A stretch of 64,000 nt of DNA from Candidatus Pacearchaeota archaeon (GCA_018303845.1 JAGVXH010000004.1:261165-325164); one strand, 5' to 3'. Positions 10,640 through 62,440 are shown, numbered from the stretch's first letter. Notes: generated by a model not told the origin, from the sequence alone. A program made the numbers and translations.

Positions 10640-10727
10640 ACCCCGCCAAGCCTCCGGCGTAGCCGAGCCCCCCAAACTCTTCCAAGAGTTTGAGCCCCCC
10701 AGACATCAGTCGAGCCCCCAGAAAAAA
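10640..10727. repeat. array of 3 GAGCCCCC(C) motifs with hairpins, directly behind the polB stop
   Basis: GAGCCCCCC at 10665 and 10692, GAGCCCCC at 10712. Perfect 8-bp inverted repeat aaactctt/aagagttt at 10674-10691. Confidence 0.85.
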
Positions 10728-22769: not shown

Positions 22770-24020
22770 ATGGATAATTTATGTATAAGGTGCAAGGGGA
22801 AAGGATTATGCGGTTACCCGTGCAGAATTCTGGCCAGATTCAAAGACAATGCCCCAAAACCAAAACTTCACTTCTCCGGCAAATCAGCACCTGAACTTTT
22901 CGTCGGAAGAATCGGCTACCCTTACATCAACGCCGGAATCCTAACGCCTCAAGACAACGACAACATCTCAAGCTTTCCCTCGGCGGAAGAATGGTCAACC
23001 CAAAATTTTTCCATAGCAAATGTCCTAAGACTCCGAGGTCAACTAATTTACGGCAAAGCACAAACCCACATAAAAATCCCAGACAAAATAAAACAAGTTA
23101 CCCAAGAGTTAGCATTATCATCAAAACCAGTCTCAACCGAAATCTTCCTAAAGAAAAAACCAACAATGCAATTTACAGTAGACAAAGTTTTCCAGCCAAT
23201 GACAAACCCAGCGCCTCTAATAAAAGCAGTCCTCGAAGAAAACCCCTTCGTCCCAAAACAAGTAGACTACCTAATCAATGACACCGATGCAAAGTCAGTA
23301 GACGTAATTAACGAACTCTACAAAGACAAAATAAAAATAGACCATCTCCAAAAACTTTTATCAATCGGACTCCTAGGGAAAAGGGCAAATCGCAGAATGG
23401 TTCCAACAAGATGGAGCATAACAGCAACCGACGACACAATATCAAAAGAACATCTAAAAAAAATAAGATACTTTGGGCAGTTAAATCAAATAACATTATA
23501 TTCAGGAAATTTCCTAGGTAACTATATCGAAGCGTTACTTCTCCCCGGCTCGTTTGCATTCGAAGCAATAGAATCATGGCAAGAAGGTTCCACTTACGCT
23601 CCAGAAGAAGCCGAACAAGTCGGATCCAAACCCCCAAACCCCCAAACCCCCAAACCCCCAAAATTTTTAATATCTCAGGACTATGAAAATTTCAGTGGTC
23701 GCAAGGCTTACGCGTTCAATGTCACAGGAGGCTACTACGCAATGCGCCTTCCCCTAACCGAACACCTAATGAAAATACAAAGACAAGCAAGTGTTCTAAT
23801 ATTTCGAGAAATTAAGCCAGAATATTATGCGCCTCTAGGAGTAGGAATAGTTCGAGAAACAGCCAAGAGAACATTTTCTAATCTACCAAAACATTTTAAT
23901 ACAATAGAAGAAGTATTAAGTGATATGCAAACAAGAATAGAAACTCCAATAGAAACCATAAAACAAAAATCCTGGCTTCTAAGCAACTACGGAAAACAAA
24001 AAACAATTTTCGATTTCTAA
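22770..24020 (+). CDS. nre: Nre-family (DUF650/DUF651) archaeal DNA-repair-associated protein
   Basis: N-terminal CIRCKGKGLCGYPC zinc-like cluster, ELFVGRIGYPYINAGILTP, and RRMVPTRWSITATDD. Contains the in-frame (CCCCCAAA)4 insert encoding KPPNPQTPKPPK. Confidence 0.65.
   Translation: MDNLCIRCKGKGLCGYPCRILARFKDNAPKPKLHFSGKSAPELFVGRIGYPYINAGILTPQDNDNISSFPSAEEWSTQNFSIANVLRLRGQLIYGKAQTHIKIPDKIKQVTQELALSSKPVSTEIFLKKKPTMQFTVDKVFQPMTNPAPLIKAVLEENPFVPKQVDYLINDTDAKSVDVINELYKDKIKIDHLQKLLSIGLLGKRANRRMVPTRWSITATDDTISKEHLKKIRYFGQLNQITLYSGNFLGNYIEALLLPGSFAFEAIESWQEGSTYAPEEAEQVGSKPPNPQTPKPPKFLISQDYENFSGRKAYAFNVTGGYYAMRLPLTEHLMKIQRQASVLIFREIKPEYYAPLGVGIVRETAKRTFSNLPKHFNTIEEVLSDMQTRIETPIETIKQKSWLLSNYGKQKTIFDF
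23626..23663. repeat. (CCCCCAAA)4 tandem repeat inside nre
   Basis: Direct reading gives ccaaacccccaaacccccaaacccccaaacccccaaaa. The G-rich strand is the minus strand. Confidence 0.95.
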
Positions 24021-25041: not shown

Positions 25042-25647
25042 TCAACCACCTAACCCAATCAACATCCCCTCAATAATCCCAGCCATAACAAGCAAAGGAA
25101 AAACAACAAAAACAAAAAACCTCAGGCCCTCTCTAAAAACATATTCAACATCTCTTTCTCTACTTAATCCCCCAAACCCCCAAACCCCCAAACCCCCGAC
25201 TTCGGCCCCCAGCCGAAGTCCCATCCCAATAGAAAACAAAACAGCCGGCAACTCGAAAATCCCATGAGGGAAAATCTTCCACATCGTCAAAATACCCTCC
25301 TGAACAACAGCCTCTCGTGCAACAAATCCAAGCAAATACCCATTAACAATACAAACCACGACAGGCAAAATCCCAAGCCCAATTCCAAAAACAAAAGCCA
25401 TAAAACTCGCCTTCAAATTATTTAAAAAAATAAAGCCAATCAATTCTAAGGTAGAAAGTCCCTCAAGCTCCGCCATCAGCATCTTAATCATCTCAATAAT
25501 CTCAGTCCTGAAAAAAACAGGAAAAGCAAACCCAATTAAAAAAAACAAACTGAATAACCCAAGAGCTACAACAAAAAACCATCGGCATTCCAAGAAAAAT
25601 CTCCAACACTTACTATAATTCTCAATAAAAAATCCTCTTCTCTTCAT
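25042..25647 (-). CDS. SpoIIM-like (DUF95) integral membrane protein
   Basis: FIFLNNLKASFMAFVFGIGLGILP....NGYLLGF and FPHGIFELPAVLFS motifs. Carries the in-frame repeat-derived insert GGLGVWGFGGLSRE. Confidence 0.65.
   Translation of the reverse strand: MKRRGFFIENYSKCWRFFLECRWFFVVALGLFSLFFLIGFAFPVFFRTEIIEMIKMLMAELEGLSTLELIGFIFLNNLKASFMAFVFGIGLGILPVVVCIVNGYLLGFVAREAVVQEGILTMWKIFPHGIFELPAVLFSIGMGLRLGAEVGGLGVWGFGGLSRERDVEYVFREGLRFFVFVVFPLLVMAGIIEGMLIGLGG
25169..25220. repeat. (CCCCCAAA)3CCCCC followed by a perfect 9-bp hairpin, in frame in the SpoIIM-like gene
   Basis: C-run at 25169-25197. Stem gacttcggc (25198-25206) pairs with gccgaagtc (25212-25220). Confidence 0.9.
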
Positions 25648-26489: not shown

Positions 26490-27299
26490 TTACTTTGTCC
26501 CAGAAAGCTTCTTCTTCAGTTTATTCGCCAAACTCAAACTTTTTTCTCCGCCTGCTTTCTTCACAACCTTCTTCACAACCTTCTTCACAACCTTCTTCAC
26601 AACCTTCTTCACAACCTTCTTCACAACCTTCTTCTCTTCTTTTTTGCTATCGGCAATATTTTTTCTAGCAACAGCCCTAGCAGTTTTAATTAAATCAGTT
26701 TTTTCTTTCTTCTCCTTATCTAATTTAGACTCGGCTCTCTTCCTGGAAGTTTCCGATTTCTTCCTAACAACTTCAAGCTCCCCATGAATCAAATCCAAAT
26801 TCTTTTTAATTCGAGCAATTTTCATTTTAACTTCACGAATAGGTTTTGTATTATCACTTAATTCATAAATATCTGCACATTCTTCACAGCTAAACCCATG
26901 CTCCAAAGCTTTCTCCTCGCCAACTTCAATATCACAAGACTTACAAACATAAAACCGCTTCGTTTCTCGACTACCAAGTGCTCCTTCAAGCGATGCAATT
27001 TTTCCAATCAAAGAACTCTCTAGCTTTGCCAAGCATTTTTCCGCATCTAATGTCCAGTAATAAATATACCAACCTTTCCTCTTATCTTTTTTTCTAATAA
27101 ATGAAACCAAATTATCAGCCGATAATTTATATAAAATATTTCTAACTTGATTAATCGTCAACTCCATTTTTTTTGCAATCAAAAATTCATTAACATCTTT
27201 CTTCCTAAATAAAATCTCGACAATCCTACCAGTTCCCTCTCCGGCCATTTCCTCGACGAGATCATGTAGAAGTTTAACTTGCATTTCAAACAAAATCAA
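26490..27299 (-). CDS. tfe: transcription factor E, alpha subunit (TFIIE-alpha homolog)
   Basis: N-terminal winged helix (EFLIAKKMELTINQVRNILYKLSADNLV..RKGWYIYYW) and Zn ribbon (C-K-S-C...C-E-E-C). The C-terminal K/V-rich tail contains a 12-nt repeat. Confidence 0.8.
   Translation of the reverse strand: MILFEMQVKLLHDLVEEMAGEGTGRIVEILFRKKDVNEFLIAKKMELTINQVRNILYKLSADNLVSFIRKKDKRKGWYIYYWTLDAEKCLAKLESSLIGKIASLEGALGSRETKRFYVCKSCDIEVGEEKALEHGFSCEECADIYELSDNTKPIREVKMKIARIKKNLDLIHGELEVVRKKSETSRKRAESKLDKEKKEKTDLIKTARAVARKNIADSKKEEKKVVKKVVKKVVKKVVKKVVKKVVKKAGGEKSLSLANKLKKKLSGTK
26557..26628. repeat. 6 perfect copies of the 12-nt unit ttcttcacaacc, encoding (VVKK)6 in the TFE tail
   Basis: Direct reading of the sequence. 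Confidence 0.95.
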
Positions 27300-28074: not shown

Positions 28075-28452
28075 ATGGCTTCCGCAGAGGAACTCTTCAT
28101 CTCGGTTTCTCCTCAATTTTACAGGCAGAGTAAGTCCTCAGGACTAATGAGTCAGGCTGAACTTCTCCATTCCTTAAAACATCTCAGAAACCTATCAGTT
28201 CTCGCTCGCCAAAAAAACGATCTTAGAAAAAACTTCCATAAATTATTATCTTCGACACTAAAACAAATTAACGCAATTCAAGATAAAATGCCAACGCCAC
28301 AAATTCCAAAAACAATTTTAAGACATGAGGAGCAACTCTCAAAATCAAAGCTAGAACCAAGGCCAGAAGTCAAGAAAACATTTTCAAAACGAGACGAGAT
28401 TGAAGAAGAGCTCTTATTGATACAGGCCAAACTTAAGGAACTAAATTCTTAA
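28075..28452 (+). CDS. hypothetical coiled-coil protein
   Basis: 125 aa, starting 4 nt after the previous gene. Its last codons lie in the first copy of the 55-bp tandem repeat. Confidence 0.45.
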   Translation: MASAEELFISVSPQFYRQSKSSGLMSQAELLHSLKHLRNLSVLARQKNDLRKNFHKLLSSTLKQINAIQDKMPTPQIPKTILRHEEQLSKSKLEPRPEVKKTFSKRDEIEEELLLIQAKLKELNS

Positions 28453-28670
28453 CTCACCAGAGTTACCTACAGGGTAAAACCAGTTTTTAAGATTCCCAAA
28501 TTCTTAACTCACCAGAGTTACCTACAGGGTAAAACCAGTTTTTAAGATTCCAAAATTCTTAACTCACCAGAGTTACCTACAGGGTAAAACCAGTTTTTAA
28601 GATTCCAAAATTCTTAACTCACCAGAGCTACCTACAGGGTAAAACCAGTTTTTAAGATTCCCAAATTCTT
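28446..28670. repeat. 55-bp tandem repeat, 4 copies plus a partial fifth start
   Basis: The unit ttcttaactcaccagagttacctacagggtaaaaccagtttttaagattcc(c)aaa starts at 28446, 28501, 28556 and 28611, with ttctt again at 28666. There are 1-2 substitutions per copy. Confidence 0.95.
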
Positions 28671-28696
28671 AAAAACCCTCATCTCTAAGTTATAAA

Positions 28697-32603: not shown

Positions 32604-35516
32604 TCACTCTAAATAAATAGAAGCCATTCCGGGTTTGGCTTTGTTCGCTCGTCCAGCAGGATCAATCTTTGTTGAATCATTCACCGCAAAAACCGCAACT
32701 TCTCTAATATCTAATTTCGAATCCCTAATATCTCGAAGAATTTTTTCTTTATCAATCTGACCAATCTCAAACGGCATCACATAAACATAAACTTTCTTTG
32801 TATCCGATTTTAAAATTCCTTTAATTCTCTCAACAATCTTTTCATTTAATCCTTCGCCACTTATCTTTTGCCCCTTATTCTTTATAACTTTCTCGTCAAC
32901 CTTAGGCCAACTGGCAACCGAAATCAATCCCTTTTCCCCAATCTTCTCCCACAATTCCTCCGCGACATGCGGGCAAATCGGAGCAATCAACTTCAAAAAT
33001 TTCAAGCCACTATCTTTAGAACATCCCTTCTCTAACTCCCCAAACAATTCCCGAATCTCAATCGTTGCCTTCCGATATTCAAAACTATCATAATAATTCC
33101 CAATATTTTTAATACAAAGATTCAGCTTAGAAACTAACTCCTCAGAATCTTTTCCGCCTACAAACGAATCATAAAACTCGAAGACTTTCTTAATGAAACG
33201 AGTAGCTCCAAGTATACCCTTTTCCGACCAATCAAAATCCTTATCCGGACTAGCAACCGAAATCAAAAACCATCGCGTTGCATCCACCCCGTATTTCTTC
33301 ATTGTCTCAATTGGCTCAACAACATTTCCAAGACTTTTCGACATCTTCCGCCCATCCTCAGCATGAAGCATCCCCTGATGAAACAACTTCAAAAACGGCT
33401 CGTCAAAATCAAGCGCACCAATATCCCTCAAAAACTTAACATAAAACCGAGAGTAAAGCAAATGCATACAAGCATGTTCAGCCCCGCCAATATAAACATC
33501 AACCGGGTTCCAATACTTCACCTTATCAAAATCAAAAATCTTTTTCGAATTTTTAGGGTCAGCATATCTCAAAAAATACCAACTCGAATTAACAAACGTA
33601 TCCATCGTGTCACTTTCTCGTCGACCTTTCCCACCACACTTCGGGCATTTACAATTCAACCACTCACTATTAGTCTCAAGCGGATTGCCCTTCCCAAACT
33701 TAACCTCCTTAGGTAAAACAACAGGCAAATCTTTTTCAGGGACTGGCACAGCACCACACCCATCACAATAAACAATCGGAATCGGCGTCCCCCAATATCT
33801 CTGACGACTAACTCCCCAATCTCGTAACTTAAAATTCACAACTCGCTTAGCATTACCTTTTCCCGCTAACCAATTCGTAATATCCGTCTTTGCTTCCAAG
33901 CTACTCATGCCACTAAACTGCTTAGACGCCATCAAAACACCATCATCGACAAACGCTTCTTTCCCGGTATACCTATTCTTAAAATCCAAAGGATCCTTAT
34001 TCGTAACAACCTGCCGAACAGAAATCCCATACTTCTTCGCAAACTCAAAATCCCTCTTGTCATGCGCCGGAACTCCCATAACCATACCACTCCCATAATC
34101 AGCCAAAACAAAATTTCCAATCCAAATCGGAACTCTCTCACCATTTGCCGGATTAACCGCATAACTCCCGCTAAAAACCCCTTCCTTCTCTCGCCTCTCA
34201 ATATCCTTCTCCGAAACAGAATTCATTTTCCTCAAATATTCATCAACAGCTAATCGCTGCTCATTCGTCACCAACTCATCTAACTTATCATGCCCAGCCG
34301 CAACAACCATAAACGTAACCCCAAAAATCGTATCCGGCCTAGTCGTAAAAACCTTCCAAACATTTCCAGATTCGCGCGCATTGGCGGAAATTTGTGGCTT
34401 AATCTTGGAGTCAATAAATTCTTTCACCTTCTTAACATCTCCATTATAAGGCACAACATCAATTCCCAAAGATTTAGCAGAGTCAACTCCATCCTCAGAG
34501 TGTTCAAAATAAACAACATTTTCTTTTTTCAAATTGAATTCCTCTAAAACTTTTTCATAATACTTAGGAGAACTCTTTTTCGGATTAAACTCCGTAGTAA
34601 AAATCTCATAATCCTTAACCTTCCCAAAAAACAAATCAAACTTACTTTTAGGAGCCATAGTCAAAACAATCTTCCTATTAGGCAAAGAATCCAAATAATT
34701 CTTCAACTCTTGATTAACGTTTCCTTTTTCATCAACCAAACAATGAACAGCATCAACTAAAATAACTTTATCTGTGCTAATCTGTGAAATCTGTGGCTCA
34801 CCCCCAGAAATTTCGAAAGAAATTTCCGTCCCTTCGCTTCGCCCAATCCAATTCCTCTGCATAGTCTTAGTCCTCTCAGGCCAGTCAATTCTTTCTAAAT
34901 CATTAAGCAACTCCTCAGCATATTCAGTCGTCCTAAAAAACCACTGCCGAAGCTTTCGAACCTCAACATCAGTATCCTCGTGTCTCCAGCATTTTCCTTC
35001 ATTGACCTGCTCATTCGCCAAAACCGTATCACACTTAGGACACCAATTTACCGAAGCTTCCTTTTGATAAGCCAACCCCTTTTCAAGCATCTTCAAAAAA
35101 ATCCACTGGTCCCACTTATAATATTCACTATTCGCAGTATTAACCATTCGTGACCAATCATAAGAAACACCAAGTGCTCTCTGTTGCTTTACAAAATTTT
35201 CAATCGCATCATTAGTATACTTCTCTGGGTCAACCCCAGCCTTAATCGCAGCATTTTCCGCAGGAAGCCCCAAAGCATCAAACCCCATAGGATGCAAAAC
35301 ATTGAAACCTTTCATAATCTTAAACCGAGCCAAAATATCTCCAATCGTATAATTCAAAGCATGTCCCATATGAAGCCCAGCCCCGGAAGGATAAGGAAAC
35401 ATTTCCAAAACATAAAATTTTTCTTTTCCAGAATCTTCACTAATCTCAAAAACCCTTTTCTCTTCCCAAGTCTTCTGCCACTTTTTCTCTATACTTACAA
35501 AATCAATTTCATCCAT
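32604..35516 (-). CDS. leuS: leucine--tRNA ligase, bacterial type, with an extra in-frame insert of about 143 aa
   Basis: PYPSGAGLHMGHALNY (HIGH), RNWIGRSEG, TTRPDTIFG, the CP1 editing region and KMSKS. 970 aa; the insert lies at 34368-34796 between RSEGTEISF and VFTTRPDT. Confidence 0.9.
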   Translation of the reverse strand: MDEIDFVSIEKKWQKTWEEKRVFEISEDSGKEKFYVLEMFPYPSGAGLHMGHALNYTIGDILARFKIMKGFNVLHPMGFDALGLPAENAAIKAGVDPEKYTNDAIENFVKQQRALGVSYDWSRMVNTANSEYYKWDQWIFLKMLEKGLAYQKEASVNWCPKCDTVLANEQVNEGKCWRHEDTDVEVRKLRQWFFRTTEYAEELLNDLERIDWPERTKTMQRNWIGRSEGTEISFEISGGEPQISQISTDKVILVDAVHCLVDEKGNVNQELKNYLDSLPNRKIVLTMAPKSKFDLFFGKVKDYEIFTTEFNPKKSSPKYYEKVLEEFNLKKENVVYFEHSEDGVDSAKSLGIDVVPYNGDVKKVKEFIDSKIKPQISANARESGNVWKVFTTRPDTIFGVTFMVVAAGHDKLDELVTNEQRLAVDEYLRKMNSVSEKDIERREKEGVFSGSYAVNPANGERVPIWIGNFVLADYGSGMVMGVPAHDKRDFEFAKKYGISVRQVVTNKDPLDFKNRYTGKEAFVDDGVLMASKQFSGMSSLEAKTDITNWLAGKGNAKRVVNFKLRDWGVSRQRYWGTPIPIVYCDGCGAVPVPEKDLPVVLPKEVKFGKGNPLETNSEWLNCKCPKCGGKGRRESDTMDTFVNSSWYFLRYADPKNSKKIFDFDKVKYWNPVDVYIGGAEHACMHLLYSRFYVKFLRDIGALDFDEPFLKLFHQGMLHAEDGRKMSKSLGNVVEPIETMKKYGVDATRWFLISVASPDKDFDWSEKGILGATRFIKKVFEFYDSFVGGKDSEELVSKLNLCIKNIGNYYDSFEYRKATIEIRELFGELEKGCSKDSGLKFLKLIAPICPHVAEELWEKIGEKGLISVASWPKVDEKVIKNKGQKISGEGLNEKIVERIKGILKSDTKKVYVYVMPFEIGQIDKEKILRDIRDSKLDIREVAVFAVNDSTKIDPAGRANKAKPGMASIYLE

Positions 35517-36013: not shown

Positions 36014-36580
36014 ATGAAAATCCTAACAATCCTCGCCCATCCTTCAAAAGACTCCTTTAATCATGCTCTTTTACGGCAATATATCAAAGGGACAAAACAA
36101 AATCACCAAGTAAAAACAATATACTTAGGCGACCTAAAATTCGACCCAATCCTCCACGAAGGTTACAAAAAAATCCAAACGCTAGAACCCGACTTACTAG
36201 ACGCCCAAAAAAAAATTCTCTGGGCAGACAAAATCACAATCTTTACCCCAATCTGGTGGACAACCCCTCCGGCACTCTTTAAGGGATTTATCGAAAGAAC
36301 CCTCCACCCAACTTTTGCCTTTAATAATCCTAGTGGCAATAAATACGAAAAACTCCTAAAGGGAAGAAACGCAAGAATAATCGCAACAATGGACGCTCCA
36401 CTTTTATATTATAAATTTATAGTCGGCGACCCACTCTACAAGCAAATGAAAGGCACCCTCTCCTTTTGCGGAATATCTCCAATCCAAAAAACCTACATCT
36501 CTAGTCTAAAATTTAAAACAAACAAACAAACAAACGAAATACTAAAACAAATTTACAAAGTAGGTTTAAACGAAAAATAA
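36014..36580 (+). CDS. flavodoxin-like-fold NAD(P)H dehydrogenase (quinone) family protein
   Basis: MKILTILAHPSKDSFNHALL N-terminus and IFTPIWWTTPPALFKGFIER, typical of the Flavodoxin_2 / NQO-like family. Confidence 0.75.
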   Translation: MKILTILAHPSKDSFNHALLRQYIKGTKQNHQVKTIYLGDLKFDPILHEGYKKIQTLEPDLLDAQKKILWADKITIFTPIWWTTPPALFKGFIERTLHPTFAFNNPSGNKYEKLLKGRNARIIATMDAPLLYYKFIVGDPLYKQMKGTLSFCGISPIQKTYISSLKFKTNKQTNEILKQIYKVGLNEK

Positions 36581-36655
36581 AATCCGTGTAAATCTCGCGT
36601 AATCTCGTGACCAACAACACTATCTAATTTCTAATCTCTATCGCCTAAAATCTAG
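36578..36655. repeat. AATCCGTGT-type motif run followed by a TAATCTC-type run
   Basis: aaaatccgtgtaaatctcgcgtaatctcgtgacc at 36578-36612, and ctaatttctaatctctatcgcctaaaatctag at 36624-36655. Confidence 0.85.
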
Positions 36656-36797
36656 TCAAGCCTCTTCTCCAATTCCCTAACCCTATCTCTCAAATACATA
36701 GCCCTCTTCACCAATCCAACAACTCCGCCGCTTCTCGCATATTAGCCTCCAACTCAATAATCACATTAGCAACCTCAGCCTTAGGAATCCCCTTAAC
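36652..36797 (-). pseudogene. diverged duplicate of the uvrB 3' end (UVR-domain codons) with a frameshift
   Basis: The minus strand reads KGIPKAEVANVIIELEANMREAAELLD, then a frameshift, then KRAMYLRDRVRELEKRLD*. The intact UvrB has SIPKAEVKNVIIELEADMREAAEMLDFERAMYLRDRVRELNKRLEK*. Confidence 0.8.
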
Positions 36798-37211
36798 TCA
36801 CCTCTAATCAAAGCATTAACATTTTTTCTTCGAAAAAATCGTTAGACAAATTCCTCCAGAATTCATATAAGAAATTTTGGCCCCAACATTCCGCAATTAG
36901 GGGTCTGCCGAGCGGCCGTAAATGGTGATTCCCTCAAATTTCAATCTATAATAACTTGCCCAACCCCAAAACTTTTAAATCATGTTACCACTACAAAATG
37001 TATAAATTAAAAAATATCCACACCACATAGAGAGTCCCACCGATTACGATTAGTAATTCCCAAGAAATACGTGGATAAAGAGAAGAAATACCAAGTCAAA
37101 GATATTTCAAAAGAGTTTTATCTTAGACTTGTCTATATAAAATAAAATTTTTACAGCGGAATATTAGTATTTAGAATTTATATTACACATAACTTACAAA
37201 AAGGAGAAAAA

Positions 37212-37403
37212 ATGAATAAAAATCCAAAAAAATCCAATTTCTTAATTACCATAATTTCAATAATGGCAATAACAGTCATTACACTATTTTTAGCAGTCAT
37301 TGGAGGTAAAAAGAGAAAAAAAACTCTGGAAAGGATAGCAAATGACAAAACCGCCTCACTTGGTATCAGAATCCAAGCCAGCAACTTAAGCAAAAAAATG
37401 TAA
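37212..37403 (+). CDS. small single-TM protein
   Basis: 63 aa with AGGAG 7 nt upstream of the ATG. One hydrophobic helix and then a basic segment. Followed by a hairpin and a T-run. Confidence 0.45.
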   Translation: MNKNPKKSNFLITIISIMAITVITLFLAVIGGKKRKKTLERIANDKTASLGIRIQASNLSKKM

Positions 37404-37407
37404 CATA

Positions 37408-37441
37408 GAAAGAGCCCGCGCCCACAAGCAAAGGCTCTTTC
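37408..37441 (+). terminator. stem-loop followed by a T-run downstream of the small ORF
   Basis: gaaagagcc (37408-37416) pairs with ggctctttc (37433-37441), and tttttt follows within 10 nt. The role is inferred. Confidence 0.35.
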
Positions 37442-37547
37442 GACCCATTTTTTATTTCAAGAAAATTATATTCTTTAAGATACTATATTAAATTAGATAT
37501 TTTAACAGTCCTTTTTATTTCCCAAATCAACATATTCCACCAACCTC

Positions 37548-37584
37548 AAAAGTCCGTGCCAGTCCATGAAGTCCGTGGTTAAAA
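37548..37584. repeat. AGTCCGTGN x3 motif run directly behind the uvrB stop
   Basis: aaaagtccgtgccagtccatgaagtccgtggttaaaa. The uvrB stop codon is at 37585-37587. Confidence 0.85.
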
Positions 37585-40227
37585 TTATTTCTCTAATCTC
37601 TTGTTAAGTTCCCTAACCCTATCCCTCAAATACATCGCCCTCTCAAAATCAAGCATCTCCGCAGCCTCCCTCATATCAGCCTCCAACTCAATAATAACAT
37701 TCTTCACTTCCGCCTTAGGTATACTCTTAGTATCCTTAATCTCAATCTTCTTATCTCTTATAGGTTTTACAATCGTCATCGGCGTAATCCCATGTTTCAA
37801 ATTATAAGCAATCTGTTTCGCCCGCCTTCTCTCAGTTTCCTTAATCGCTTCCTTAATCGACCCAGTAACAACATCAGCATACAAAACAACTTTAGCCTCC
37901 GAATTCCGAGCAGCCCTCCCAATTATCTGAATCAAACTTCTCTTATCTCGCAAGAACCCCTCCTTATCAGCGTCAAGCACCCCAACAAATCCAATCTCCG
38001 GAATATCAATTCCCTCTCGCAATAAATTAATCCCAACAAGTACATCAAACTTACCCAACCGTAGCTCCCGCAAAATCTCCGTCCTCTCAAACGTATCAAT
38101 CTCCGAATGCATATACCGACACTTAACCCCATTCTCCCCCAAAAAATCCGTCAACTCCTCCGCCATCCTCTTAGTAAGAGTCGTAAGCATAACCCGAAAC
38201 CCCTTCTTAACAGCCTTATCAATCTCAACCAAACAATCCCTCACCTGCCCCCCATAAGATTCGCGTCCATTCGCGGCTAAAATCTCACCCAGCAACTCAG
38301 AAAACTCCATGTTCTCACCATTCCCCCTGTTTGTAAAATGTCCCCTATCTTTCAATACAACAGACTTAACACCAAGCGCCTTAGAATAAATTTTAACAGA
38401 TTCTCTAATGCTCTTAGCATCATCAGAAGATTCAATTATAACAATGTCAGAAACTCTATTTGAAATTTTTTTATCAATCTTAAAATCATAAAACTCCTCA
38501 GCCTCCCATTCCTCCGTCCCCTTGTTCTTACAAGCAGCCGCAACCAAAATCAACTTCTTAACCTTCCTCTTAGTTTGCCCAAGCCACCGAACCAAAAAAG
38601 CCGCACCGGCACTAGCCCCAACCAAAACAGAATTCTCATCAACATCAATCTTTTCAAACTCTGCCTTCCACTTCTCATAATCAGGCTTCCAATTCTCAGG
38701 CATCAAAGGAGTAAATACGGCAGCACCTTTTTTCTCAAGTTCTGACTTAATCCAAGGAAACCAATTTCTTTCATTCTGCTCAGGCAAGCTATACCTCTTC
38801 ATATTCTCTCTATCATTAGGATTGGCCCCATGCACAATAACAACATTCCCCAAGCCCCCAGCGCAGCTGAGCTCTTCCACCGAAGGTGAGCCCTTCCGAC
38901 CACGAGCCCTTCCAGCAGAGCTGAGCCCCTCCGTAGAACTAATAGGTCGAATTTCGACCTCGGGATCAATTAGTCCTGTAGGCCTAATTATCTGTTCTAC
39001 GACGTTAGAAGAGCAACGCTCTTCGTATTCCCCAGGCGTCGCACTCACAAAAACAGTCGAATTCCCCTTCATATACTTTTCAAACTCACCAAACTTCAAC
39101 GGCCGATTGTCATATGCCGAAGTCAACCGAAATCCATAATCAATCAAATTCTTCTTCCGTGCCCGGTCCCCATTAAACATACCACCAACCTGCGGAACCG
39201 ACCGATGACTCTCGTCAATAATAAAAAGAAAATCCCCCTTAGGAAAATAGTCAAGCAAACAAAAAGCCTGTTCACCCTCACGCCTTCCATCAAAATGCCG
39301 CGAATAATTTTCAATTCCCTTGCAAGTCCCAGTCTCCTTCAACATCTCCAAATCATAAAGCGTCCTCTGTTTCAACCGATGTTTAACCAACTCATCGCTA
39401 ATCTCAGCCAAGTCAATCTTCAACTGTTCCCGAATTTCCAAAGCAGCCTTATCAAAAACACTCTCTGGCACAACATAATTACGCGCAGGCCAAACATGAA
39501 AATACTTCATATCACTAAGCTTCTCACCAGTCACCTTATCAATCTCAAAAATTTTCTCAACCTCATCTCCAAAAAATTCAATCCTAATAATATTTTCCGA
39601 ATATCCAGGAATAAAATCAATAACATCTCCCTTAACTCTGAAGCGCCCTTGAATTAAATCCAAATCATTCCGTTCAAAAGCTCCACTAACCAACTTCCCA
39701 ATAAAATCCTTCCTTCCAATCTTCTCGCCAACTTCAACAGGAAACCCCATAGACCGAAACATTTTAGGGTCACTCATTCCATAAATACAACTAACACTCG
39801 CAACAACAATAACGTCACTTCGAGTCAAAAGACTAGCAACAGTCGCATGCCTCATCATCTCAATTCGCGGATTAATCGCCGAATCTTTCTCAATATACTG
39901 ATCCTTCGCAGGCAAATAACTCTCCGGCTGATAATAATCATAATACGAAATAAAATACTCAACCCGGTTCTCAGGAAAAAACTCCCGCATCTCCTCATAA
40001 AGCTGAGCCGCAAGTGTCTTATTATGGGCCAAAATCAAAGTAGGCCTCCCAACCTTCGCAATAACATTCGCCATCGTAAAAGTCTTCCCTGACCCAGTCA
40101 CACCCAAAAGAGTCTGCATATTCTTACCTTCTCGGATCCCATCAACTAAACCAGCAATCGCCACAGGCTGGTCCCCAGTAGGTTTAAACTTCGATTTCAA
40201 CTTAAACTTTCGCTTTTCAATTTCCAT
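37585..40227 (-). CDS. uvrB: excinuclease ABC subunit B with an in-frame alpha/beta serine-hydrolase domain insert of about 229 aa
   Basis: GVTGSGKTFTMA, YYDYYQPE, DESH, TTLTKRMAEELT, the helicase C motifs and a UVR domain. 880 aa versus the usual ~660; the insert lies at about 38254-38943. Confidence 0.9.
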   Translation of the reverse strand: MEIEKRKFKLKSKFKPTGDQPVAIAGLVDGIREGKNMQTLLGVTGSGKTFTMANVIAKVGRPTLILAHNKTLAAQLYEEMREFFPENRVEYFISYYDYYQPESYLPAKDQYIEKDSAINPRIEMMRHATVASLLTRSDVIVVASVSCIYGMSDPKMFRSMGFPVEVGEKIGRKDFIGKLVSGAFERNDLDLIQGRFRVKGDVIDFIPGYSENIIRIEFFGDEVEKIFEIDKVTGEKLSDMKYFHVWPARNYVVPESVFDKAALEIREQLKIDLAEISDELVKHRLKQRTLYDLEMLKETGTCKGIENYSRHFDGRREGEQAFCLLDYFPKGDFLFIIDESHRSVPQVGGMFNGDRARKKNLIDYGFRLTSAYDNRPLKFGEFEKYMKGNSTVFVSATPGEYEERCSSNVVEQIIRPTGLIDPEVEIRPISSTEGLSSAGRARGRKGSPSVEELSCAGGLGNVVIVHGANPNDRENMKRYSLPEQNERNWFPWIKSELEKKGAAVFTPLMPENWKPDYEKWKAEFEKIDVDENSVLVGASAGAAFLVRWLGQTKRKVKKLILVAAACKNKGTEEWEAEEFYDFKIDKKISNRVSDIVIIESSDDAKSIRESVKIYSKALGVKSVVLKDRGHFTNRGNGENMEFSELLGEILAANGRESYGGQVRDCLVEIDKAVKKGFRVMLTTLTKRMAEELTDFLGENGVKCRYMHSEIDTFERTEILRELRLGKFDVLVGINLLREGIDIPEIGFVGVLDADKEGFLRDKRSLIQIIGRAARNSEAKVVLYADVVTGSIKEAIKETERRRAKQIAYNLKHGITPMTIVKPIRDKKIEIKDTKSIPKAEVKNVIIELEADMREAAEMLDFERAMYLRDRVRELNKRLEK
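38869..38932. repeat. 4 copies of GAGC(C/T)C(T/C)TCC at 16-19 nt spacing, in frame at the N-terminal border of the UvrB insert
   Basis: Copies start at 38869, 38888, 38904 and 38923. On the minus strand they encode EGLSSAGRARGRKGSPSVEELS. Confidence 0.9.
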
Positions 40228-40270: not shown

Positions 40271-41908
40271 TCACTCCCGAATCTTCTTGCCCCGAAGCAA
40301 CCTCTGATAACCAATCGCAAACCGATGTGCCTCATCCCGAATCTCAATCAACAATTTTAAAGCCCCACTCTTTTTATCTAGCCTAACCTCTCTTCCCAAA
40401 CCCCCATGCCCCCATACCCCCAAATCCCCATCTTGCCGTTTTGGCAAGATTACAGTCTCTTCGGCCTTAGCCAAACCAATAACCTCAATTCCCAATTTCA
40501 ATTCCTCCAAAACCCCAACCGCAACCCCAAGTTGCCCCTTCCCTCCATCAACAACAATCAAATCCGGGGCCTCCATTTTTTCATCCCGAGCTTCCGAACT
40601 CCCAATCCCCCGAACTTCCGCCAAGCGATGATATCGTCGCGAGATAACTTCCCTCATCGCAGCATAATCGTCATTAACATCCCCGCCACGAATTCGAAAC
40701 TTCCGATAATTACTTTTATCCGCAACACCATCCCTAAACTGAACCATCGAAGCAACAACATCAGTCCCACTCAAATGCGAAACATCAAAACACTCAATCA
40801 CTCTAGGCAACTTAATCAATCCCAACTTCTCCTTCAACTCCTTAACCTTATCAACATTCCCAAAAACCGCCAAATCAACATTCTTCTTCACAAGCTCCAA
40901 TAGCTTAACTTTCTCTCCCATCTTTGGCACAACAACTTTTCCGCCAAGTCTCTCAATAAATTCCTTCAATCCAGAATCAACATCTTCGGGCAACACAACC
41001 TCTTTTGGACAATCATAGTCCGAATAAAACTGAACCAAAAATTCCTCCAAAAAATTAGGACTCCAATCAAACTCAAAAAACTGCTTATTCTCTAGTATAC
41101 CTCTTCTAGCATTAAACAAAATCAAGTATACCTTATCTCCAGAAATAATCCAATTAATAAAATCCTCATCATACTTCTTATCCCTCTCCATCTTCTGCTT
41201 CTCACCCAAATCCTTAATCGCCCTAATCTGCTCTCTCAAAATAAGCGCTCTCTCAAAATCTTTGTCAATAGAAAATCCTTTCATTCTCTTCGACAAAATC
41301 TCAACAACAGCCTTAGTCTTGCCCTTCAAAACCATTTCGGCATTCTTAACATTCTCCAAATAATCCGTCTTGCTAATCTTCCCCTCGCACGGTCCAGAAC
41401 AAAGTCCAATCTGAAACCTCATACAAACTTTTTTAGGCAACTTTACGCAAGTTCGAATCTTAAAAATTTTCCTAAGCGCATGCAAAACATAATCTCTCGA
41501 CATCCCAGAAACAAACGGCCCATAAAATCTCGAAGCTCTTTCTAATTTCGAATCTCTAATCTCTAATCTCTTTCGTGCAATCAAAAGTCGCGGGAACATT
41601 TCTCCCGTGACTTGCACGAACGCATACCTCTTGCTATCCTTCAAGTCAATATTATATTTAGGCTTATACTTCTTAATCAAATTATTCTCCAATATCAAGG
41701 CCTCAACCTCAGAATCCGTAACAACAAATTCAACAGAATCAATATGTGAAACCAAAACATTAGTCTTAACAGACTCGTGCTCTTTAGCAAAATAACTCTT
41801 AACTCGGTTTACCAAACTCTTCGCTTTTCCAACATAAATAACTTTATCCTTAGAATCCTTAAACAAATAACATCCAGGATTTTTAGGAATTTCCTTTAGA
41901 TTAATCAT
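40271..41908 (-). CDS. uvrC: excinuclease ABC subunit C
   Basis: GIY-YIG N-terminus ([24 protein letters not shown]), a UVR-like segment, the endonuclease domain (ECFDVSH) and C-terminal IRDEAHRFAI. Contains two repeat-derived in-frame inserts. Confidence 0.9.
   Translation of the reverse strand: MINLKEIPKNPGCYLFKDSKDKVIYVGKAKSLVNRVKSYFAKEHESVKTNVLVSHIDSVEFVVTDSEVEALILENNLIKKYKPKYNIDLKDSKRYAFVQVTGEMFPRLLIARKRLEIRDSKLERASRFYGPFVSGMSRDYVLHALRKIFKIRTCVKLPKKVCMRFQIGLCSGPCEGKISKTDYLENVKNAEMVLKGKTKAVVEILSKRMKGFSIDKDFERALILREQIRAIKDLGEKQKMERDKKYDEDFINWIISGDKVYLILFNARRGILENKQFFEFDWSPNFLEEFLVQFYSDYDCPKEVVLPEDVDSGLKEFIERLGGKVVVPKMGEKVKLLELVKKNVDLAVFGNVDKVKELKEKLGLIKLPRVIECFDVSHLSGTDVVASMVQFRDGVADKSNYRKFRIRGGDVNDDYAAMREVISRRYHRLAEVRGIGSSEARDEKMEAPDLIVVDGGKGQLGVAVGVLEELKLGIEVIGLAKAEETVILPKRQDGDLGVWGHGGLGREVRLDKKSGALKLLIEIRDEAHRFAIGYQRLLRGKKIRE
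40395..40450. repeat. degenerate (CCCCCAWA)4 run followed by an 8-bp hairpin, in frame in uvrC
   Basis: cccaaacccccatgcccccatacccccaaatcccc at 40395-40429. Stem atcttgcc (40430-40437) pairs with ggcaagat (40443-40450). Encodes ILPKRQDGDLGVWGHGGLG. Confidence 0.9.
41541..41570. repeat. TAATCTC-type run, in frame in uvrC
   Basis: tctaatttcgaatctctaatctctaatctc encodes RLEIRDSKLE. This is inserted between the conserved FPRL..R and YFGPF segments. Confidence 0.85.
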
Positions 41909-43253: not shown

Positions 43254-43287
43254 AAAATCCGTGTAATCCGTGTAATCTGTGGCTAAA
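43254..43287. repeat. AATCCGTGT x2 plus AATCTGTGGCTAAA directly behind the uvrA stop
   Basis: aaaatccgtgtaatccgtgtaatctgtggctaaa. The uvrA stop is at 43297-43299. Confidence 0.9.
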
Positions 43288-47317: not shown

Positions 47318-47423
47318 AATAAAAATAACAAAGCTGCACCAGCAATCTAATTTCTAATTTATAAAATCTAATCTCGATGAAAAAGAAGTAACTTTAAAAA
47401 CAAATTAGTTCTTTTTCATTTAC

Positions 47424-56372: not shown

Positions 56373-56451
56373 TTAAACATATAAATCATATTTTTCCCAA
56401 ACTCATTTTAATTAAAATTTCTCTTCAGCAGTCCCAGTAAAGAATTAATAA

Positions 56452-56572
56452 AAAATCCGTGTAATCCGTGTAATCTGCGGCTAAATAATTAACAAAATCC
56501 AAAAACAAAATCTGCGTAATCTGCGTAATCTGCGGCTAAATAATTAACAATCAATCCAAAAAAAATCCGTGC
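56452..56572. repeat. two tandem ~44-nt units (AATCYGYGT x3 + GGCTAAATAATTAACAA) plus a partial third, behind the helicase gene
   Basis: 56452-56495 is aaaatccgtgtaatccgtgtaatctgcggctaaataattaacaa. 56507-56550 is aaaatctgcgtaatctgcgtaatctgcggctaaataattaacaa. 56560-56572 is aaaaatccgtgcc. Confidence 0.95.
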
Positions 56573-61531: not shown

Positions 61532-62440
61532 TTATTCCTTCCTTCCCATAATCCTCTCAATATCTTCAGTCGTCTTCGCTCCAACCAAATCCCCACGCAA
61601 CTTCTTCCCGTCCGCTAACCCCTTCGTGAAATTCATCGCCTGATATTTAACCTGCCGAAAATAGAGCCCATATTTCTTAGCCAATTTCAAATACTCTCCA
61701 AATCCAACCTCGTCCCCCTTTAGTCCGTGTTCGTCCGTGTTCGTCCGTGTGCCATTTTTTAAGAGTTGACCAGATTTATTTTCAAGCCCCAAGAAAATTC
61801 CAGGTCTCCCGATAGCCTCTCGTCCAATCATCACAAAATCAAAATCCCTCAAAATCTTCTCCACATCATTAAGATTGGAAACCCCACTAAAAATAACAGG
61901 CATACTAGCCTTCTCCTTAATCTTCAAAGCAAAATCATAATCAACTTCTCCGCTATACCCCTGACTCAAAGTCCGAGCATGAATACAAACAGCACTCACT
62001 CCAATCTCCTCACAAATCCTCAAAATATCAAAGGCCAAATCACTCTTCCGAATTTTAACAGTCAATGGTTTTCTAGTACAACTTCTCATCACTCTCAAAA
62101 TATCTTCAATTACTTCCAAATCATTTAAACAAGCTCCATGTTTCAATTTCTTAGACAACTTCGACGGACACCCCAAATTAAAATCCCAACCCGAAACCCT
62201 AGAATCATATTCCTTCATAAAACTCTTAATCCCACGAGAAGAATTCCCAAACAACTGCAAAACAGGCTTATCATCTAAATCAAGTTTAGCCTTAGATAAA
62301 GCCGAAGTCATCCCAGTCCAAGTCAACCCACATCCAGCCCGCCTACAAAGCAACCGAAAAGCAATATCATTAGGCTCAAGCATCGGAGCAAGAAAAACTC
62401 TGGCCTTCAATTTCAAATTCCCAAGTCTATAATCCATCAC
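61532..62440 (-). CDS. dus: tRNA-dihydrouridine synthase
   Basis: LAPMLEPNDIAFRLLCRR.G, DFNLGCP, VKIR and IHART motifs. Carries the repeat-derived insert GTRTNTDEHGLKG. Confidence 0.8.
   Translation of the reverse strand: MMDYRLGNLKLKARVFLAPMLEPNDIAFRLLCRRAGCGLTWTGMTSALSKAKLDLDDKPVLQLFGNSSRGIKSFMKEYDSRVSGWDFNLGCPSKLSKKLKHGACLNDLEVIEDILRVMRSCTRKPLTVKIRKSDLAFDILRICEEIGVSAVCIHARTLSQGYSGEVDYDFALKIKEKASMPVIFSGVSNLNDVEKILRDFDFVMIGREAIGRPGIFLGLENKSGQLLKNGTRTNTDEHGLKGDEVGFGEYLKLAKKYGLYFRQVKYQAMNFTKGLADGKKLRGDLVGAKTTEDIERIMGRKE
61721..61753. repeat. (TCGTCCGTGT)-type x3 run, in frame in dus
   Basis: Direct reading gives tagtccgtgttcgtccgtgttcgtccgtgtgcc. Confidence 0.9.

What the first reader, a model, noticed from the sequence alone, without database searches (positions are those of the whole stretch)
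34368..34796. A module of about 143 aa with a HAD-like pattern inserted in frame in bacterial-type LeuRS, bordered by direct repeats
In bacterial LeuRS, RNWIGRSEG.EI.F is separated from (V)(F/Y)TTRPDT by only about 10-15 residues. Here residues ~241-383 intervene. The insert reads KVILVDAVHCLVDEKG...NRKIVLTMAP...KKSSPKYYEKVLEEFNLKKENVVYFEHSEDGVDSAKSLGIDVV. This has the order of HAD-superfamily motifs I-IV, but the second Asp of motif I and the acidic motif IV look degenerate. Both borders encode PQIS. The DNA at the borders is AGCCACAGATTTCACAGATTAGCACAGAT at the N side and AGCCACAAATTTCCGCCAATGCGCGCGAATCTGG at the C side. The first is nearly identical to the intergenic element TTTAGCCACAGATTACACGGATTACACGGAT found behind uvrA. 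The C-border peptide ANARESG also parallels ANGRESYG at the UvrB insert border.
Basis: partly seen in the sequence, partly recalled or inferred. Interest (0 to 1): 0.75.

Follow-up and report, generated by a model that had tools for sequence, protein, structure and literature searches.

The report
Whole enzyme gene nested inside LeuRS
A complete small HAD-type hydrolase gene sits in frame inside a surface loop of the essential leucyl-tRNA synthetase of a DPANN archaeon. It is bordered by copies of a short triple-repeat DNA element, and in related genomes this element also marks empty or differently filled versions of the same loop, which suggests a cassette-like way of grafting whole enzymes into essential proteins.

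Summary
leuS (32604-35516, minus strand, 970 aa) carries a 438-nt (146-codon) in-frame block at 34366-34803.

- **The core is a whole gene.** Residues 248-373 are 59-60% identical, end to end, to free-standing 128-aa archaeal proteins. The start codon is now ACA and the stop position AAG.
- **The fold is HAD.** The model has pLDDT 92.8, its best Foldseek matches are HAD enzymes, and TIGR01509 and PF13419 score above cut-off. Motif I is D-x-V and motif IV is E-H.
- **The borders are a repeat element.** Both are in-frame copies of a 9-10-nt x3 tandem element that elsewhere follows stop codons. They model as disordered linkers.
- **The organism** is a Woese-/Pacearchaeota-like DPANN archaeon with a bacterial-type LeuRS.
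- **The loop is a hot spot.** In relatives it is empty, holds a HAD module, or holds other cargo (Ser_hydrolase, other alpha/beta hydrolases, an unidentified ~120-aa block).
- **The nearest relative** (78% identical) has only a solo triple repeat there.
- **A sister strain** is 95-100% identical in the host gene but mosaic (44-77%) within the cassette.
- **uvrB shows the same pattern:** empty, solo repeat, or repeat-flanked cargo.

Best reading: a translated nested-gene cassette gained or exchanged by recombination at the repeat elements. I found no description of this in the literature.

The parts
32604..35516 (-). leuS, a bacterial-type leucyl-tRNA synthetase of 970 aa. HIGH (HMGH), KMSKS and the CP1 editing-domain motifs are intact.
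   Evidence: ORF. Pfam tRNA-synt_1, tRNA-synt_1_2 and Anticodon_1. The best PDB relative is T. thermophilus LeuRS 1h3n.
34366..34803 (-). Inserted block of 438 nt (146 codons), residues about 239-384. It sits at the tip of the beta-hairpin EISFEI / VWKVFTT at the start of the CP1 editing domain.
   Evidence: Alignment with 37 relatives. The insert lies between residues 243 and 245 of 1h3n. The Pfam editing-domain model is split at profile position 16/17.
34771..34800 (-). N-border triple repeat AGCC-ACAGATTT-CACAGATTAG-CACAGAT, translated as EPQISQIST. It is a predicted disordered linker.
   Evidence: pLDDT is below 50 for residues 240-247 in the full-length model.
34401..34775 (-). Core equivalent to a whole free-standing HAD-like ORF (Thr248 = former Met1 ... 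Ile372). The next codon, AAG (34398-34400), stands where relatives have the stop codon.
   Evidence: 59-60% identity over the full length to the 128-aa P0002. HAD fold. Family-invariant residues are kept.
34752..34754 (-). Codon of Asp255, the presumed HAD motif I nucleophile (LVDAV). It is invariant in the family.
34366..34402 (-). C-border triple repeat TTAAGC-CACAAATTTC-CGCCAATGCG-CGCGAATCTGG, translated as KPQISANARESG. It is a predicted disordered linker. It is orthologous to the solo repeat in the closest relative's leuS.
   Evidence: L168: CGCGAATTTG-CGCGAATGGA-CGCGAATCTGG. pLDDT is below 50 for residues 375-384.
43256..43286 (-). Intergenic copy of the triple-repeat element, 11 nt behind the uvrA stop codon.
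56450..56539 (-). Two tandem intergenic copies of the element (55-nt period) behind the UvrD-like helicase gene.
37545..37582 (-). Variant copy (CACGGACTT / CATGGACTGG / CACGGACTTTT) directly behind the uvrB stop codon.
38248..38943 (-). Second nested cassette: a Ser_hydrolase (PF06821) module in frame in uvrB, at the loop EIRP|..|GQVRD. The N border is a copy of another intergenic repeat family, GGGCTCA.. x4 (38865-38932). The C border is TTTAGCC-GCGAATGGA-CGCGAATCT (38255-38280).
61723..61750 (-). Solo triple repeat (GAACACGGAC x2.8) in frame in a Dus-like gene, just after the Pfam domain match (17-221). It encodes NGTRTNTDEHG, the same peptide that borders a UvrB cargo in a relative (P0281).

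Best explanation
The block is a nested-gene cassette. A complete small gene of a DPANN-specific, cap-less HAD-IA-like family has been placed in frame into the tip of a surface beta-hairpin at the start of the LeuRS CP1/editing domain. Short stretches of repeat DNA flank it on both sides.

The gene's ATG is now ACA and its stop position is now AAG, so the ribosome reads straight through: LeuRS-N, linker (PQISQIS), HAD domain, linker (PQISANARESG), LeuRS-C. The HAD domain folds on its own and hangs from the hairpin on two disordered tethers. LeuRS keeps all its catalytic and editing motifs.

The flanks are copies of a 9-10-nt x3 tandem-repeat element that otherwise lies just behind stop codons in this genome. 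I infer that these elements are where the DNA exchange happens. A copy of the element resident in the loop recombines with element copies that bound a gene. This produces element-cargo-element, and the reverse reaction leaves a solo element. The same process swaps cargos between lineages and strains.

Shown:
- in-frame capture of a whole gene;
- the HAD fold;
- the border repeats belong to the intergenic family;
- the loop is a hot spot with several different cargos;
- the nearest relative has a solo element;
- between two strains, divergence is mosaic and confined to the cassette;
- the same triad of states occurs in uvrB.

Inferred:
- the recombination mechanism and its direction (gain or loss);
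- that the module is enzymatically active;
- that it is a passenger rather than a LeuRS accessory.
For: - Whole-gene homology: 59-60% identity from residue 1 to the last residue of free-standing 128-131-aa proteins in archaeal contexts.
- Family size and hosts: an exhaustive profile search finds 141 family members at E<1e-10. Many are free-standing proteins of 126-135 aa. Others are embedded in LeuRS, Ile/Val-type RS, AlaRS, a class II Asp/Lys/Asn-type RS, GyrA, L22 and a membrane protein.
- HAD fold and profile scores above cut-off. All 35 family-invariant residues are kept in the insert.
- Full-length model: the module has pLDDT 83-92, and both border peptides are below 50.
- Hot spot: the same loop is empty in 24 relatives. 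It carries a HAD module in L009, L088, L091-95 and L166; Ser_hydrolase in L008, L010, L019 and L029; and other alpha/beta hydrolases in L044 and L066. About 49 of the 120 closest LeuRS clusters are 900 aa or longer.
- Module tree: at least two HAD subfamilies were captured independently, each with free-standing relatives.
- Border elements: the family is enriched. L010, the sister lineage in the tree, has (CGCGGATTCA)x3 and (CGCGGACTCT)x3 on the two sides of a different cargo.
- Solo element: the closest relative, P0156/L168 (78% identical), has only (CGCGAATNNN)x3 at the site, with the same 3' end as the window's C border.
- Sister strain L171: the host gene is 95-100% identical at nucleotide level. 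The N border and the first 95 nt of the module are 100% identical. From gene position ~952 to the C border, identity drops to 44-68% with a 42-nt indel, then returns to above 90% immediately after the cassette.
- Composition: the module is 31.1% GC against 40.7% for the host gene.
- UvrB relatives show the canonical loop, solo-repeat versions (GTDSTDLHG = CACAGATAG-CACGGATTTG-CACGGATTGGG) and repeat-flanked cargos.
Against: - Several LeuRS with a HAD module in this loop have no repeat linkers at all. The repeats are therefore not required for the architecture, or they have been trimmed.
- Each array is more uniform internally than it is similar to other arrays. That fits local generation or homogenisation better than simple copy-and-paste.
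- The same repeats, and other short tandem repeats, also sit alone in other linkers: Dus, Nre, UvrC. They may simply accumulate wherever extra residues are tolerated.
- No integrase or transposase is encoded in the 64-kb window, and no free-standing donor copy flanked by two elements was found.
- The direction of change (gain or loss) is not resolved.
- There is no RNA or protein evidence for the fused product.
- The low GC is only in the lowest 6.8% of windows of that size.
Confidence: 0.6

Rival explanations
1. Permissive-loop accretion. The HAD domain is an old, vertically inherited insertion. The triple repeats are unrelated, fast-evolving microsatellite-like filler. They arise locally in any place that tolerates extra residues, such as intergenic DNA, loops and domain linkers, and play no role in moving the cargo.
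For: - HAD modules occur in the same loop without repeats in other lineages.
- LeuRS-embedded type-A modules cluster together in the module tree.
- Repeats occur alone next to or between Pfam domains in Dus and Nre, and inside UvrC.
- Arrays are internally homogeneous but differ from each other.
- No recombinase is encoded nearby.
Against: - The closest relative (78% identical) has the repeat but no cargo.
- The sister lineage L010 has a different cargo with the same kind of repeat on both sides.
- The window's C border is orthologous in its last two units to the solo element, while its first unit matches the N border. This hybrid structure is what a crossover would leave.
- Divergence between strains is confined to the cassette, with sharp boundaries.
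- The module's GC is 10 points below that of the host gene.
- The same association recurs at an unrelated loop in uvrB.
Confidence: 0.25
2. Functional accessory of LeuRS. The loop next to the editing domain recruits small hydrolases (HAD, serine hydrolase, alpha/beta hydrolase) because they add an activity useful to LeuRS. Examples would be clearing a mis-activated or mis-charged product, or a product of the reaction.
For: - The identified cargos at this loop are hydrolases.
- The loop lies at the base of CP1.
- Family-invariant residues are kept.
- The architecture persists in many lineages.
Against: - The same HAD family is embedded in GyrA, L22, AlaRS, a class II RS and a membrane protein, and is mostly free-standing.
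- The Ser_hydrolase family sits in UvrB in this genome and in LeuRS in others.
- Many relatives, including the closest one, have an empty loop.
- Motif I lacks the Asp+2 general acid/base of HAD phosphatases.
Confidence: 0.12
3. Intervening sequence that is removed. The block would be an intein, an archaeal bulge-helix-bulge intron or a DNA element excised before expression, so mature LeuRS would lack it.
For: - Archaea of this group have a tRNA-splicing endonuclease, and there is an intron-containing tRNA in the window.
- UvrB relatives carry true inteins.
- An 18-nt, 78% complementary pair of arms spans the two borders (I1).
Against: - No Hint or intein Pfam match, and no Cys/Ser ... His-Asn + Cys/Ser/Thr junction residues.
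- A bulge-helix-bulge motif search at the borders gives 10 hits against a background mean of 16.2.
- The start and stop codons of the captured gene have been converted to sense codons, and the frame is kept through both borders. That is pointless for a spliced element.
- Relatives fuse the module with minimal linkers.
Confidence: 0.03
4. Assembly or binning chimera.
For: The genome is a metagenome assembly, and repeats sit at both borders.
Against: - The identical 970-aa protein is on 24 contigs from independent ENA, JGI and Logan assemblies. It is on contigs of up to 965 kb.
- A sister strain carries the same architecture.
- The frame is kept at both junctions.
Confidence: 0.01

Closest known systems
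Rickettsia palindromic elements (RPEs): selfish repeats inserted in frame into protein-coding genes (from my own knowledge: Ogata et al. 2000)
   Same: A dispersed family of short repeats occurs both in intergenic DNA and in frame in surface loops of housekeeping proteins, without destroying them.
   Different: RPEs are about 100-150-bp palindromic units in bacteria and carry no cargo. Here the unit is a 27-30-nt direct triple repeat in an archaeon. It flanks whole captured genes, and the solo and filled states alternate at the same site.
Inteins in essential genes
   Same: A foreign coding block sits in frame at a recurrent site of an essential protein. Occupancy among relatives is patchy, and UvrB relatives of this clade carry real inteins.
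   Different: There is no Hint domain, no splicing residues and no homing endonuclease. The block is expected to stay in the mature protein as an extra domain.
Integron gene cassettes (ORF + attC)
   Same: Single promoterless ORFs are bounded by a short recombination-site-like repeat. The same site is found empty, with a solo site, or with different cargos.
   Different: Integron cassettes are not translated in frame with a host gene. attC is an imperfect inverted repeat recombined by IntI. Here the repeats are direct tandem triplets and no integrase was found.
Nested (inserted) domains in aminoacyl-tRNA synthetases, such as the CP1 editing domain itself and appended domains of eukaryotic aaRS
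   Same: A complete globular domain is grafted into a loop of the synthetase through two linkers.
   Different: Those insertions are ancient and fixed. This loop is polymorphic among close relatives, carries unrelated enzymes, and still shows the DNA flanks of the captured gene.
Cap-less (C0) and type IA HAD hydrolases (MDP-1 1u7p, YihX 2b0c, 2pr7, TM_1254 3kbb; TIGR01509)
   Same: It has the Rossmannoid HAD core, with the motif I Asp, the motif III Lys and the motif IV Glu aligned.
   Different: It is only about 125 aa with no cap. Motif I is D-A-V, not DxD. Motif IV is E-H, not DD or ED. Both changes are invariant in the family.

Membership tests
HAD superfamily (type IA-like, cap-less) | Profile score above curated cut-offs | tested here: met
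   PF13419 scores 28.7 against 23.8. TIGR01509 scores 40.7 against 29.4. Only the part after the cap position aligns.
HAD superfamily (type IA-like, cap-less) | Rossmannoid HAD core fold | tested here: met
   AlphaFold pLDDT is 92.8. The top 25 Foldseek PDB matches (E<=1e-3) are HAD-superfamily domains: MDP-1, YihX, the phosphatase domain of soluble epoxide hydrolase, and 2pr7 with TMq 0.75.
HAD superfamily (type IA-like, cap-less) | Motif I DxD (nucleophile Asp and Asp+2 general acid/base) | tested here: not met
   The sequence is LVD255-A-V. The nucleophile Asp is present and invariant, while Asp+2 is Val or Ile in all family members. Some HAD branches (dehalogenases, P-type ATPases, phosphonatase) also lack Asp+2 (my own knowledge). 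This argues against a classical phosphatase mechanism, not against the fold.
HAD superfamily (type IA-like, cap-less) | Motif III Lys and motif IV acidic pair (DD/ED) | tested here: inconclusive
   In the alignment to TM_1254, the Lys of PeKsdP aligns with GKPDP. FEHSED aligns with FEDSKS, so Glu is kept and Asp has become His. Both residues are invariant in the family.
Bacterial-type LeuRS | HIGH and KMSKS motifs, a CP1 editing domain with TTRPDT, and closest structures bacterial | tested here: met
   HMGH, KMSKS and VFTTRPDT are present. PF13603 scores 200 bits. 1h3n gives 341 bits, against 92 bits for archaeal-type 1wkb.
Intein | Hint domain, N-terminal Cys/Ser, and C-terminal His-Asn followed by Cys/Ser/Thr | tested here: not met
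   No Hint or intein family appears in Pfam. The borders read GGE|PQIS and RESG|NVW.
Archaeal bulge-helix-bulge intron | hBHBh' motif bringing the two junctions together | tested here: not met
   10 relaxed motif hits at the borders against a mean of 16.2 at random site pairs. The start and stop codons have been converted to sense codons.
Integron-type cassette | attC-like inverted-repeat site and a tyrosine-recombinase integrase | tested here: not met
   The border elements are direct tandem triplets. No integrase is encoded in the window. The rest of the genome was not examined.
Transposon / MITE | Terminal inverted repeats and a target-site duplication | tested here: inconclusive
   No terminal inverted repeats were found. 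TCTGG occurs at both outer edges (34804-34808 and 34366-34370). However, it overlaps the last repeat unit CGCGAATCTGG, which is also present in the solo element of L168.

The most novel reading that the evidence does not exclude
Woese-/Pacearchaeota-like DPANN archaea may possess a previously undescribed in-frame gene-cassette system. Short triple-repeat elements (9-10 nt x3, 27-30 nt, so they preserve the frame) would colonise permissive loops of essential proteins and then serve as recombination sites. Through these sites whole small enzyme genes would be inserted, exchanged and removed. The cargos seen include HAD, serine hydrolase, Nudix, Ham1 and GNAT. The result would be polymorphic 'enzyme-within-enzyme' proteins such as LeuRS, UvrB, other aaRS, GyrA and L22. 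This would be a natural, ongoing mechanism of domain insertion caught with its DNA scars still visible.
Probability: 0.35. Interest if true: 0.9.

Novelty: new variant of a known kind. Interest (0 to 1): 0.8.

Why it matters
How whole domains come to be inserted into the middle of other proteins is usually inferred from ancient, fixed examples. The DNA-level mechanism in those cases is no longer visible.

Here the same loop of an essential enzyme is found in four states among close relatives:
- empty;
- occupied by a solo repeat;
- occupied by repeat-cargo-repeat;
- occupied by a trimmed, seamless domain.

Two strains about 95% identical at nucleotide level differ by a mosaic replacement inside the cassette. 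This makes the process directly testable with population long reads, metatranscriptomes and simple biochemistry.

It also matters for annotation. In the source annotations, several of these longer LeuRS are named 'class I tRNA ligase family protein', and one such UvrB 'DEAD/DEAH box helicase family protein'. Finally, it matters for understanding how ultra-small archaea with few genes package accessory enzymes.

Tried and rejected
- **Read and RNA support.** I used independent assemblies instead.
- **Intein.** No Hint or intein Pfam hit and no junction residues.
- **Bulge-helix-bulge intron.** My own motif scan gave fewer hits at the borders than at random site pairs. The 18-nt complementary arms across the borders (I1) were therefore not pursued.
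- **Flanks of a free-standing homologue.** P0002 in L001 was checked for the repeat element, and there is none. The element is specific to the window's own clade.
- **P0001.** The module fused to L22 could not be located on a contig.
- **Recombinase in the window.** Pfam scans of 33 ORFs found none.
- **Second copy of the HAD module.** None in the window or in the sister-strain locus.
- **Literature.** Five searches on DPANN, aaRS insertion, Nudix-LeuRS and tandem repeats found no description.
- **LeuRS tree.** The NJ tree is star-like at 55-63% identity. It cannot by itself decide the number of gains and losses.
- **Target-site duplication.** TCTGG is ambiguous because it is part of the last repeat unit.
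Full report
**1. What is there**

The finding lies inside a 970-aa ORF on the minus strand (32604-35516).
- Pfam finds class I synthetase core, LeuRS editing-domain and anticodon-binding matches.
- The best solved relatives are bacterial LeuRS: T. thermophilus 1h3n scores 341 bits, while archaeal-type 1wkb scores 92 bits.
- HMGH, KMSKS and VFTTRPDT are intact.

I aligned the protein with 37 related LeuRS fetched from genome assemblies.
- The stretch from RNWIG to TTRPDT is 30 aa in 24 uninserted relatives (…GTEIDFEINGKKWPIFTTRPDT). It is 176 aa here.
- The extra block is 146 codons (34366-34803). Removing it leaves FEISGNVWKVF, the canonical length.
- In 1h3n the block falls between residues 243 and 245. 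That is the turn of the hairpin EILFPVEGKEVRI/RVFTTRPDT.
- The block splits the Pfam editing-domain model at profile position 16/17.

**2. The organism**

- The relatives are Woesearchaeota, Pacearchaeota and Nanoarchaeia MAGs.
- A free-standing homologue of the module sits between eIF-1A, ribosomal protein S17e and tRNA-intron endonuclease genes.
- The window contains an Rfam tRNA hit 160 nt long against a 71-position model, which a bacterial-mode tRNA finder misses.

This is therefore a DPANN archaeon carrying a bacterial-type LeuRS.

**3. The core is a whole gene with a HAD fold**

Homology to free-standing genes:
- A search with the insert returned four proteins. Three are free-standing, 128-131 aa long, and align from their Met1 to their last residue with residues 248-372 of LeuRS at 44-60% identity.
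- Where P0002 starts M-D-K-V-I-L-V-D, LeuRS reads T248-D-K-V-I-L-V-D (ACA GAT AAA GTT).
- Where P0002 stops, LeuRS has AAG (Lys373) inside the sequence TTAAGCC. That sequence is the in-frame version of the TTTAGCC that opens the intergenic repeat element.

Fold and family:
- The module scores above the curated cut-offs of PF13419 and TIGR01509.
- The AlphaFold model has pLDDT 92.8 and an alternating strand-helix pattern.
- Its 25 best Foldseek PDB matches (E<=1e-3) are HAD-superfamily domains. They include cap-less MDP-1, YihX and the 137-aa 2pr7.

Motifs:
- Motif I is D255-A-V, with no Asp+2.
- The motif III Lys aligns.
- Motif IV is E-H where TM_1254 has E-D.
- These residues are invariant across the family and are kept in the insert.

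The conservation nevertheless argues for a maintained function, not for decay.

**4. The borders**

Both borders encode PQIS.

| Border | DNA |
|---|---|
| N border | GAGCC-ACAGATTT-CACAGATTAG-CACAGAT |
| C border | TTAAGC-CACAAATTTC-CGCCAATGCG-CGCGAATCTGG |

- Each border is three tandem units of 9-10 nt.
- The shared 13-mer (12/13) would occur by chance in 0.27% of comparable window pairs.
- Intergenic members of the same family lie just behind the stop codons of uvrA and uvrB, and twice behind a UvrD-like helicase gene. All are in gene orientation and all end in a T run.
- A strict triple-repeat pattern is found 4 times, against 0.075 in shuffles.
- In a full-length AlphaFold model built on 63 sequences (pLDDT 85.6), the only segments below pLDDT 50 in this region are residues 240-247 and 375-384. 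These are exactly the two repeat-encoded peptides. The module between them is confident.
- A 10-nt unit repeated three times is 30 nt, so the array preserves the reading frame.

**5. The loop is a hot spot**

Cargos found at the same loop in relatives:

| Cargo | Where |
|---|---|
| HAD module | L009, L088/89, L091, L092, L093-95, L166, P0168, P0174 |
| PF06821 serine hydrolase | L008, L010, L019, L029 |
| Other alpha/beta hydrolases | L044, L066 |
| Unrelated ~120-aa block | P0159 |
| Short extra peptides | L041, P0157, P0166 |

- A second site inside CP1 carries Nudix domains.
- About 49 of the 120 closest LeuRS clusters are 900 aa or longer. Among these, precomputed Pfam hits include Ser_hydrolase, NUDIX, Ham1, alpha/beta hydrolases and nucleotidyltransferases.
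- The carriers are scattered over a poorly resolved LeuRS tree.
- The module tree shows two HAD subfamilies in LeuRS, each with free-standing relatives. L22-fused copies nest among the LeuRS-embedded ones.
- An exhaustive profile search finds the module mostly free-standing. It is also embedded in Ile/Val-type RS, AlaRS, a class II RS, GyrA, L22 and a membrane protein.

**6. Evidence that the repeats mark the exchange points**

(a) Solo element. The closest LeuRS, P0156 (78% identical; L168), has no cargo. It has a solo array at the site: GGTAATC-CGCGAATTTG-CGCGAATGGA-CGCGAATCTGG-AAAGAATGTTTGG, translated as NPRICANGRESGK. Its 3' end is the same as the window's C border. The window's C border looks like a hybrid: its first unit matches the N border, and its last two units match the solo element.

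(b) Different cargo, same kind of flanks. L010 groups with the window in the tree and has a serine hydrolase instead of the HAD module. That cargo is flanked by (CGCGGATTCA)x3 and (CGCGGACTCT)x3.

(c) Mosaic divergence in a sister strain (L171, GCA_053534935.1; uvrC, uvrB and downstream leuS 93-95% identical to the window at nucleotide level):
- Its leuS is 95-100% identical outside the block.
- The N border and the first 95 nt of the module are identical.
- From gene position ~952 to the C border, identity falls to 44-68%, with a 42-nt indel.
- Identity returns to above 90% right after the block.
- The UvrB module of the same two strains is 100% identical in protein sequence.

(d) Composition. 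The module is 31.1% GC against 40.7% for the rest of leuS. This is a local dip that lies in the lowest 6.8% of windows of that size.

(e) The same triad of states in uvrB.
- The window's uvrB carries a PF06821 module at EIRP|…|GQVRD. Its C border is TTTAGCC-GCGAATGGA-CGCGAATCT. Its N border is a GGGCTCA-type repeat that is otherwise found behind polB and a GH15 gene.
- UvrB relatives show the canonical loop (EIRPVEGQIKD).
- Others show solo arrays. P0285 has GTDSTDLHG, encoded by CACAGATAG-CACGGATTTG-CACGGATTGGG. P0288 has PRINASLHERE.
- Others show cargos bordered by array peptides: NGTRTNTDEHG, STRMNTDEHG, ENARESY.
- The peptide NGTRTNTDEHG also occurs alone in the window's Dus-like gene.

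**7. Rivals**

- **Accretion.** Under this reading the repeats accumulate in any permissive linker and are unrelated to cargo movement. It is the serious alternative, for three reasons. Several HAD-LeuRS lack repeats. Arrays are more uniform internally than they are similar to each other. Other tandem repeats sit in frame in the Nre, UvrC and LeuRS C-terminal linkers. It explains points (a) to (e) less well.
- **Removal by protein or RNA splicing.** This is not supported.
- **Assembly error.** This is excluded by 24 independent contigs and by the sister strain.
- **LeuRS-specific accessory function.** This is weakened because the same modules sit in unrelated hosts.

**8. Novelty**

Five literature searches found no description of these nested enzymes or of the triple-repeat element. 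One JGI annotation does label such a UvrB as 'UvrB/predicted alpha/beta hydrolase family esterase'.

The closest known phenomena are Rickettsia RPEs, inteins, integron cassettes and classical nested domains. This case shares features with each but meets the defining features of none.

**9. Verdict**

The nested whole-gene HAD domain is essentially certain. The recombination role of the repeat elements is the best-supported inference, but it is unproven.

Noticed in passing
window 36650-37585 (minus strand), compared with L171 4715-4928: About 930 nt of extra DNA follows the uvrB stop codon. After it comes a decayed duplicate of the uvrB 3' end (IPKAEVANVIIELEANMREAAELLDW*), which carries its own triple repeat (36580-36620). 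In the sister strain, uvrB ends 72 nt from the flavodoxin-like gene. This looks like an insertion into the 3' end of uvrB that brought a replacement gene end.
   Followed up: partly
window 47424-47583 (+): An Rfam tRNA hit (44.3 bits) spans 160 nt for a 71-position model, which implies an intervening sequence of about 89 nt. ARAGORN in bacterial mode finds no tRNA in the whole window.
   Followed up: no
window 23626-23662, 25169-25197, 40395-40431; L010 1889-1922: G-rich octamer tandem repeats lie in frame in three genes. They are GGGTTTGG, TTTGGGGG, GGTATGGG and GGGGTTTC, each x3.6-4.6 and mostly perfect. One sits in the Nre_N/Nre_C linker, one in a membrane protein and one in UvrC (…GDLGVWGHGGLG…). 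One also forms part of the N border of the L010 LeuRS cargo.
   Followed up: partly
window 32703-32733, 41541-41571, 47346-47372, 63849-63913: A heptamer repeat (GATTAGA / TCTAATC, x4-6) occurs in frame in the C-terminal part of LeuRS (ILRDIRDSKLDIRE) and in UvrC (LEIRDSKLE). It also occurs in intergenic DNA. A related array follows uvrB in L174.
   Followed up: no
window 2490-2567 and 10650-10727 (minus strand, behind GH15 and polB), 38865-38932: A second intergenic repeat family, GGGGCTCA… x3-4 with short hairpins, lies behind stop codons. It is read in frame as the N-border linker of the UvrB serine-hydrolase module. Similar 17-nt repeats occur upstream of leuS in L010 (549-620).
   Followed up: partly
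window 28443-28672: A 55-nt tandem repeat, 4.2 copies at 98% identity, begins in the last codons of ORF 28075-28452 and fills the gap up to the AlaRS-like gene.
   Followed up: no
window 26557-26634: A perfect 12-nt x6.5 repeat encodes (KKVV)n near the C terminus of a TFE-alpha-like protein.
   Followed up: no
P0323, P0330 (UvrB relatives); P0057, P0080, P0069, P0138: Some UvrB relatives carry true inteins (PF14890, LAGLIDADG). Some aaRS of this group carry up to three nested enzymes at once, for example LeuRS with NUDIX + Ham1 + HAD, or with GNAT + Ser_hydrolase + HAD.
   Followed up: no
window 32604-35516: The LeuRS of these DPANN archaea is of the bacterial type. Outside the group its closest relatives are Clostridia and Thermoanaerobacterales at about 45%, not archaeal-type LeuRS.
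   Followed up: partly
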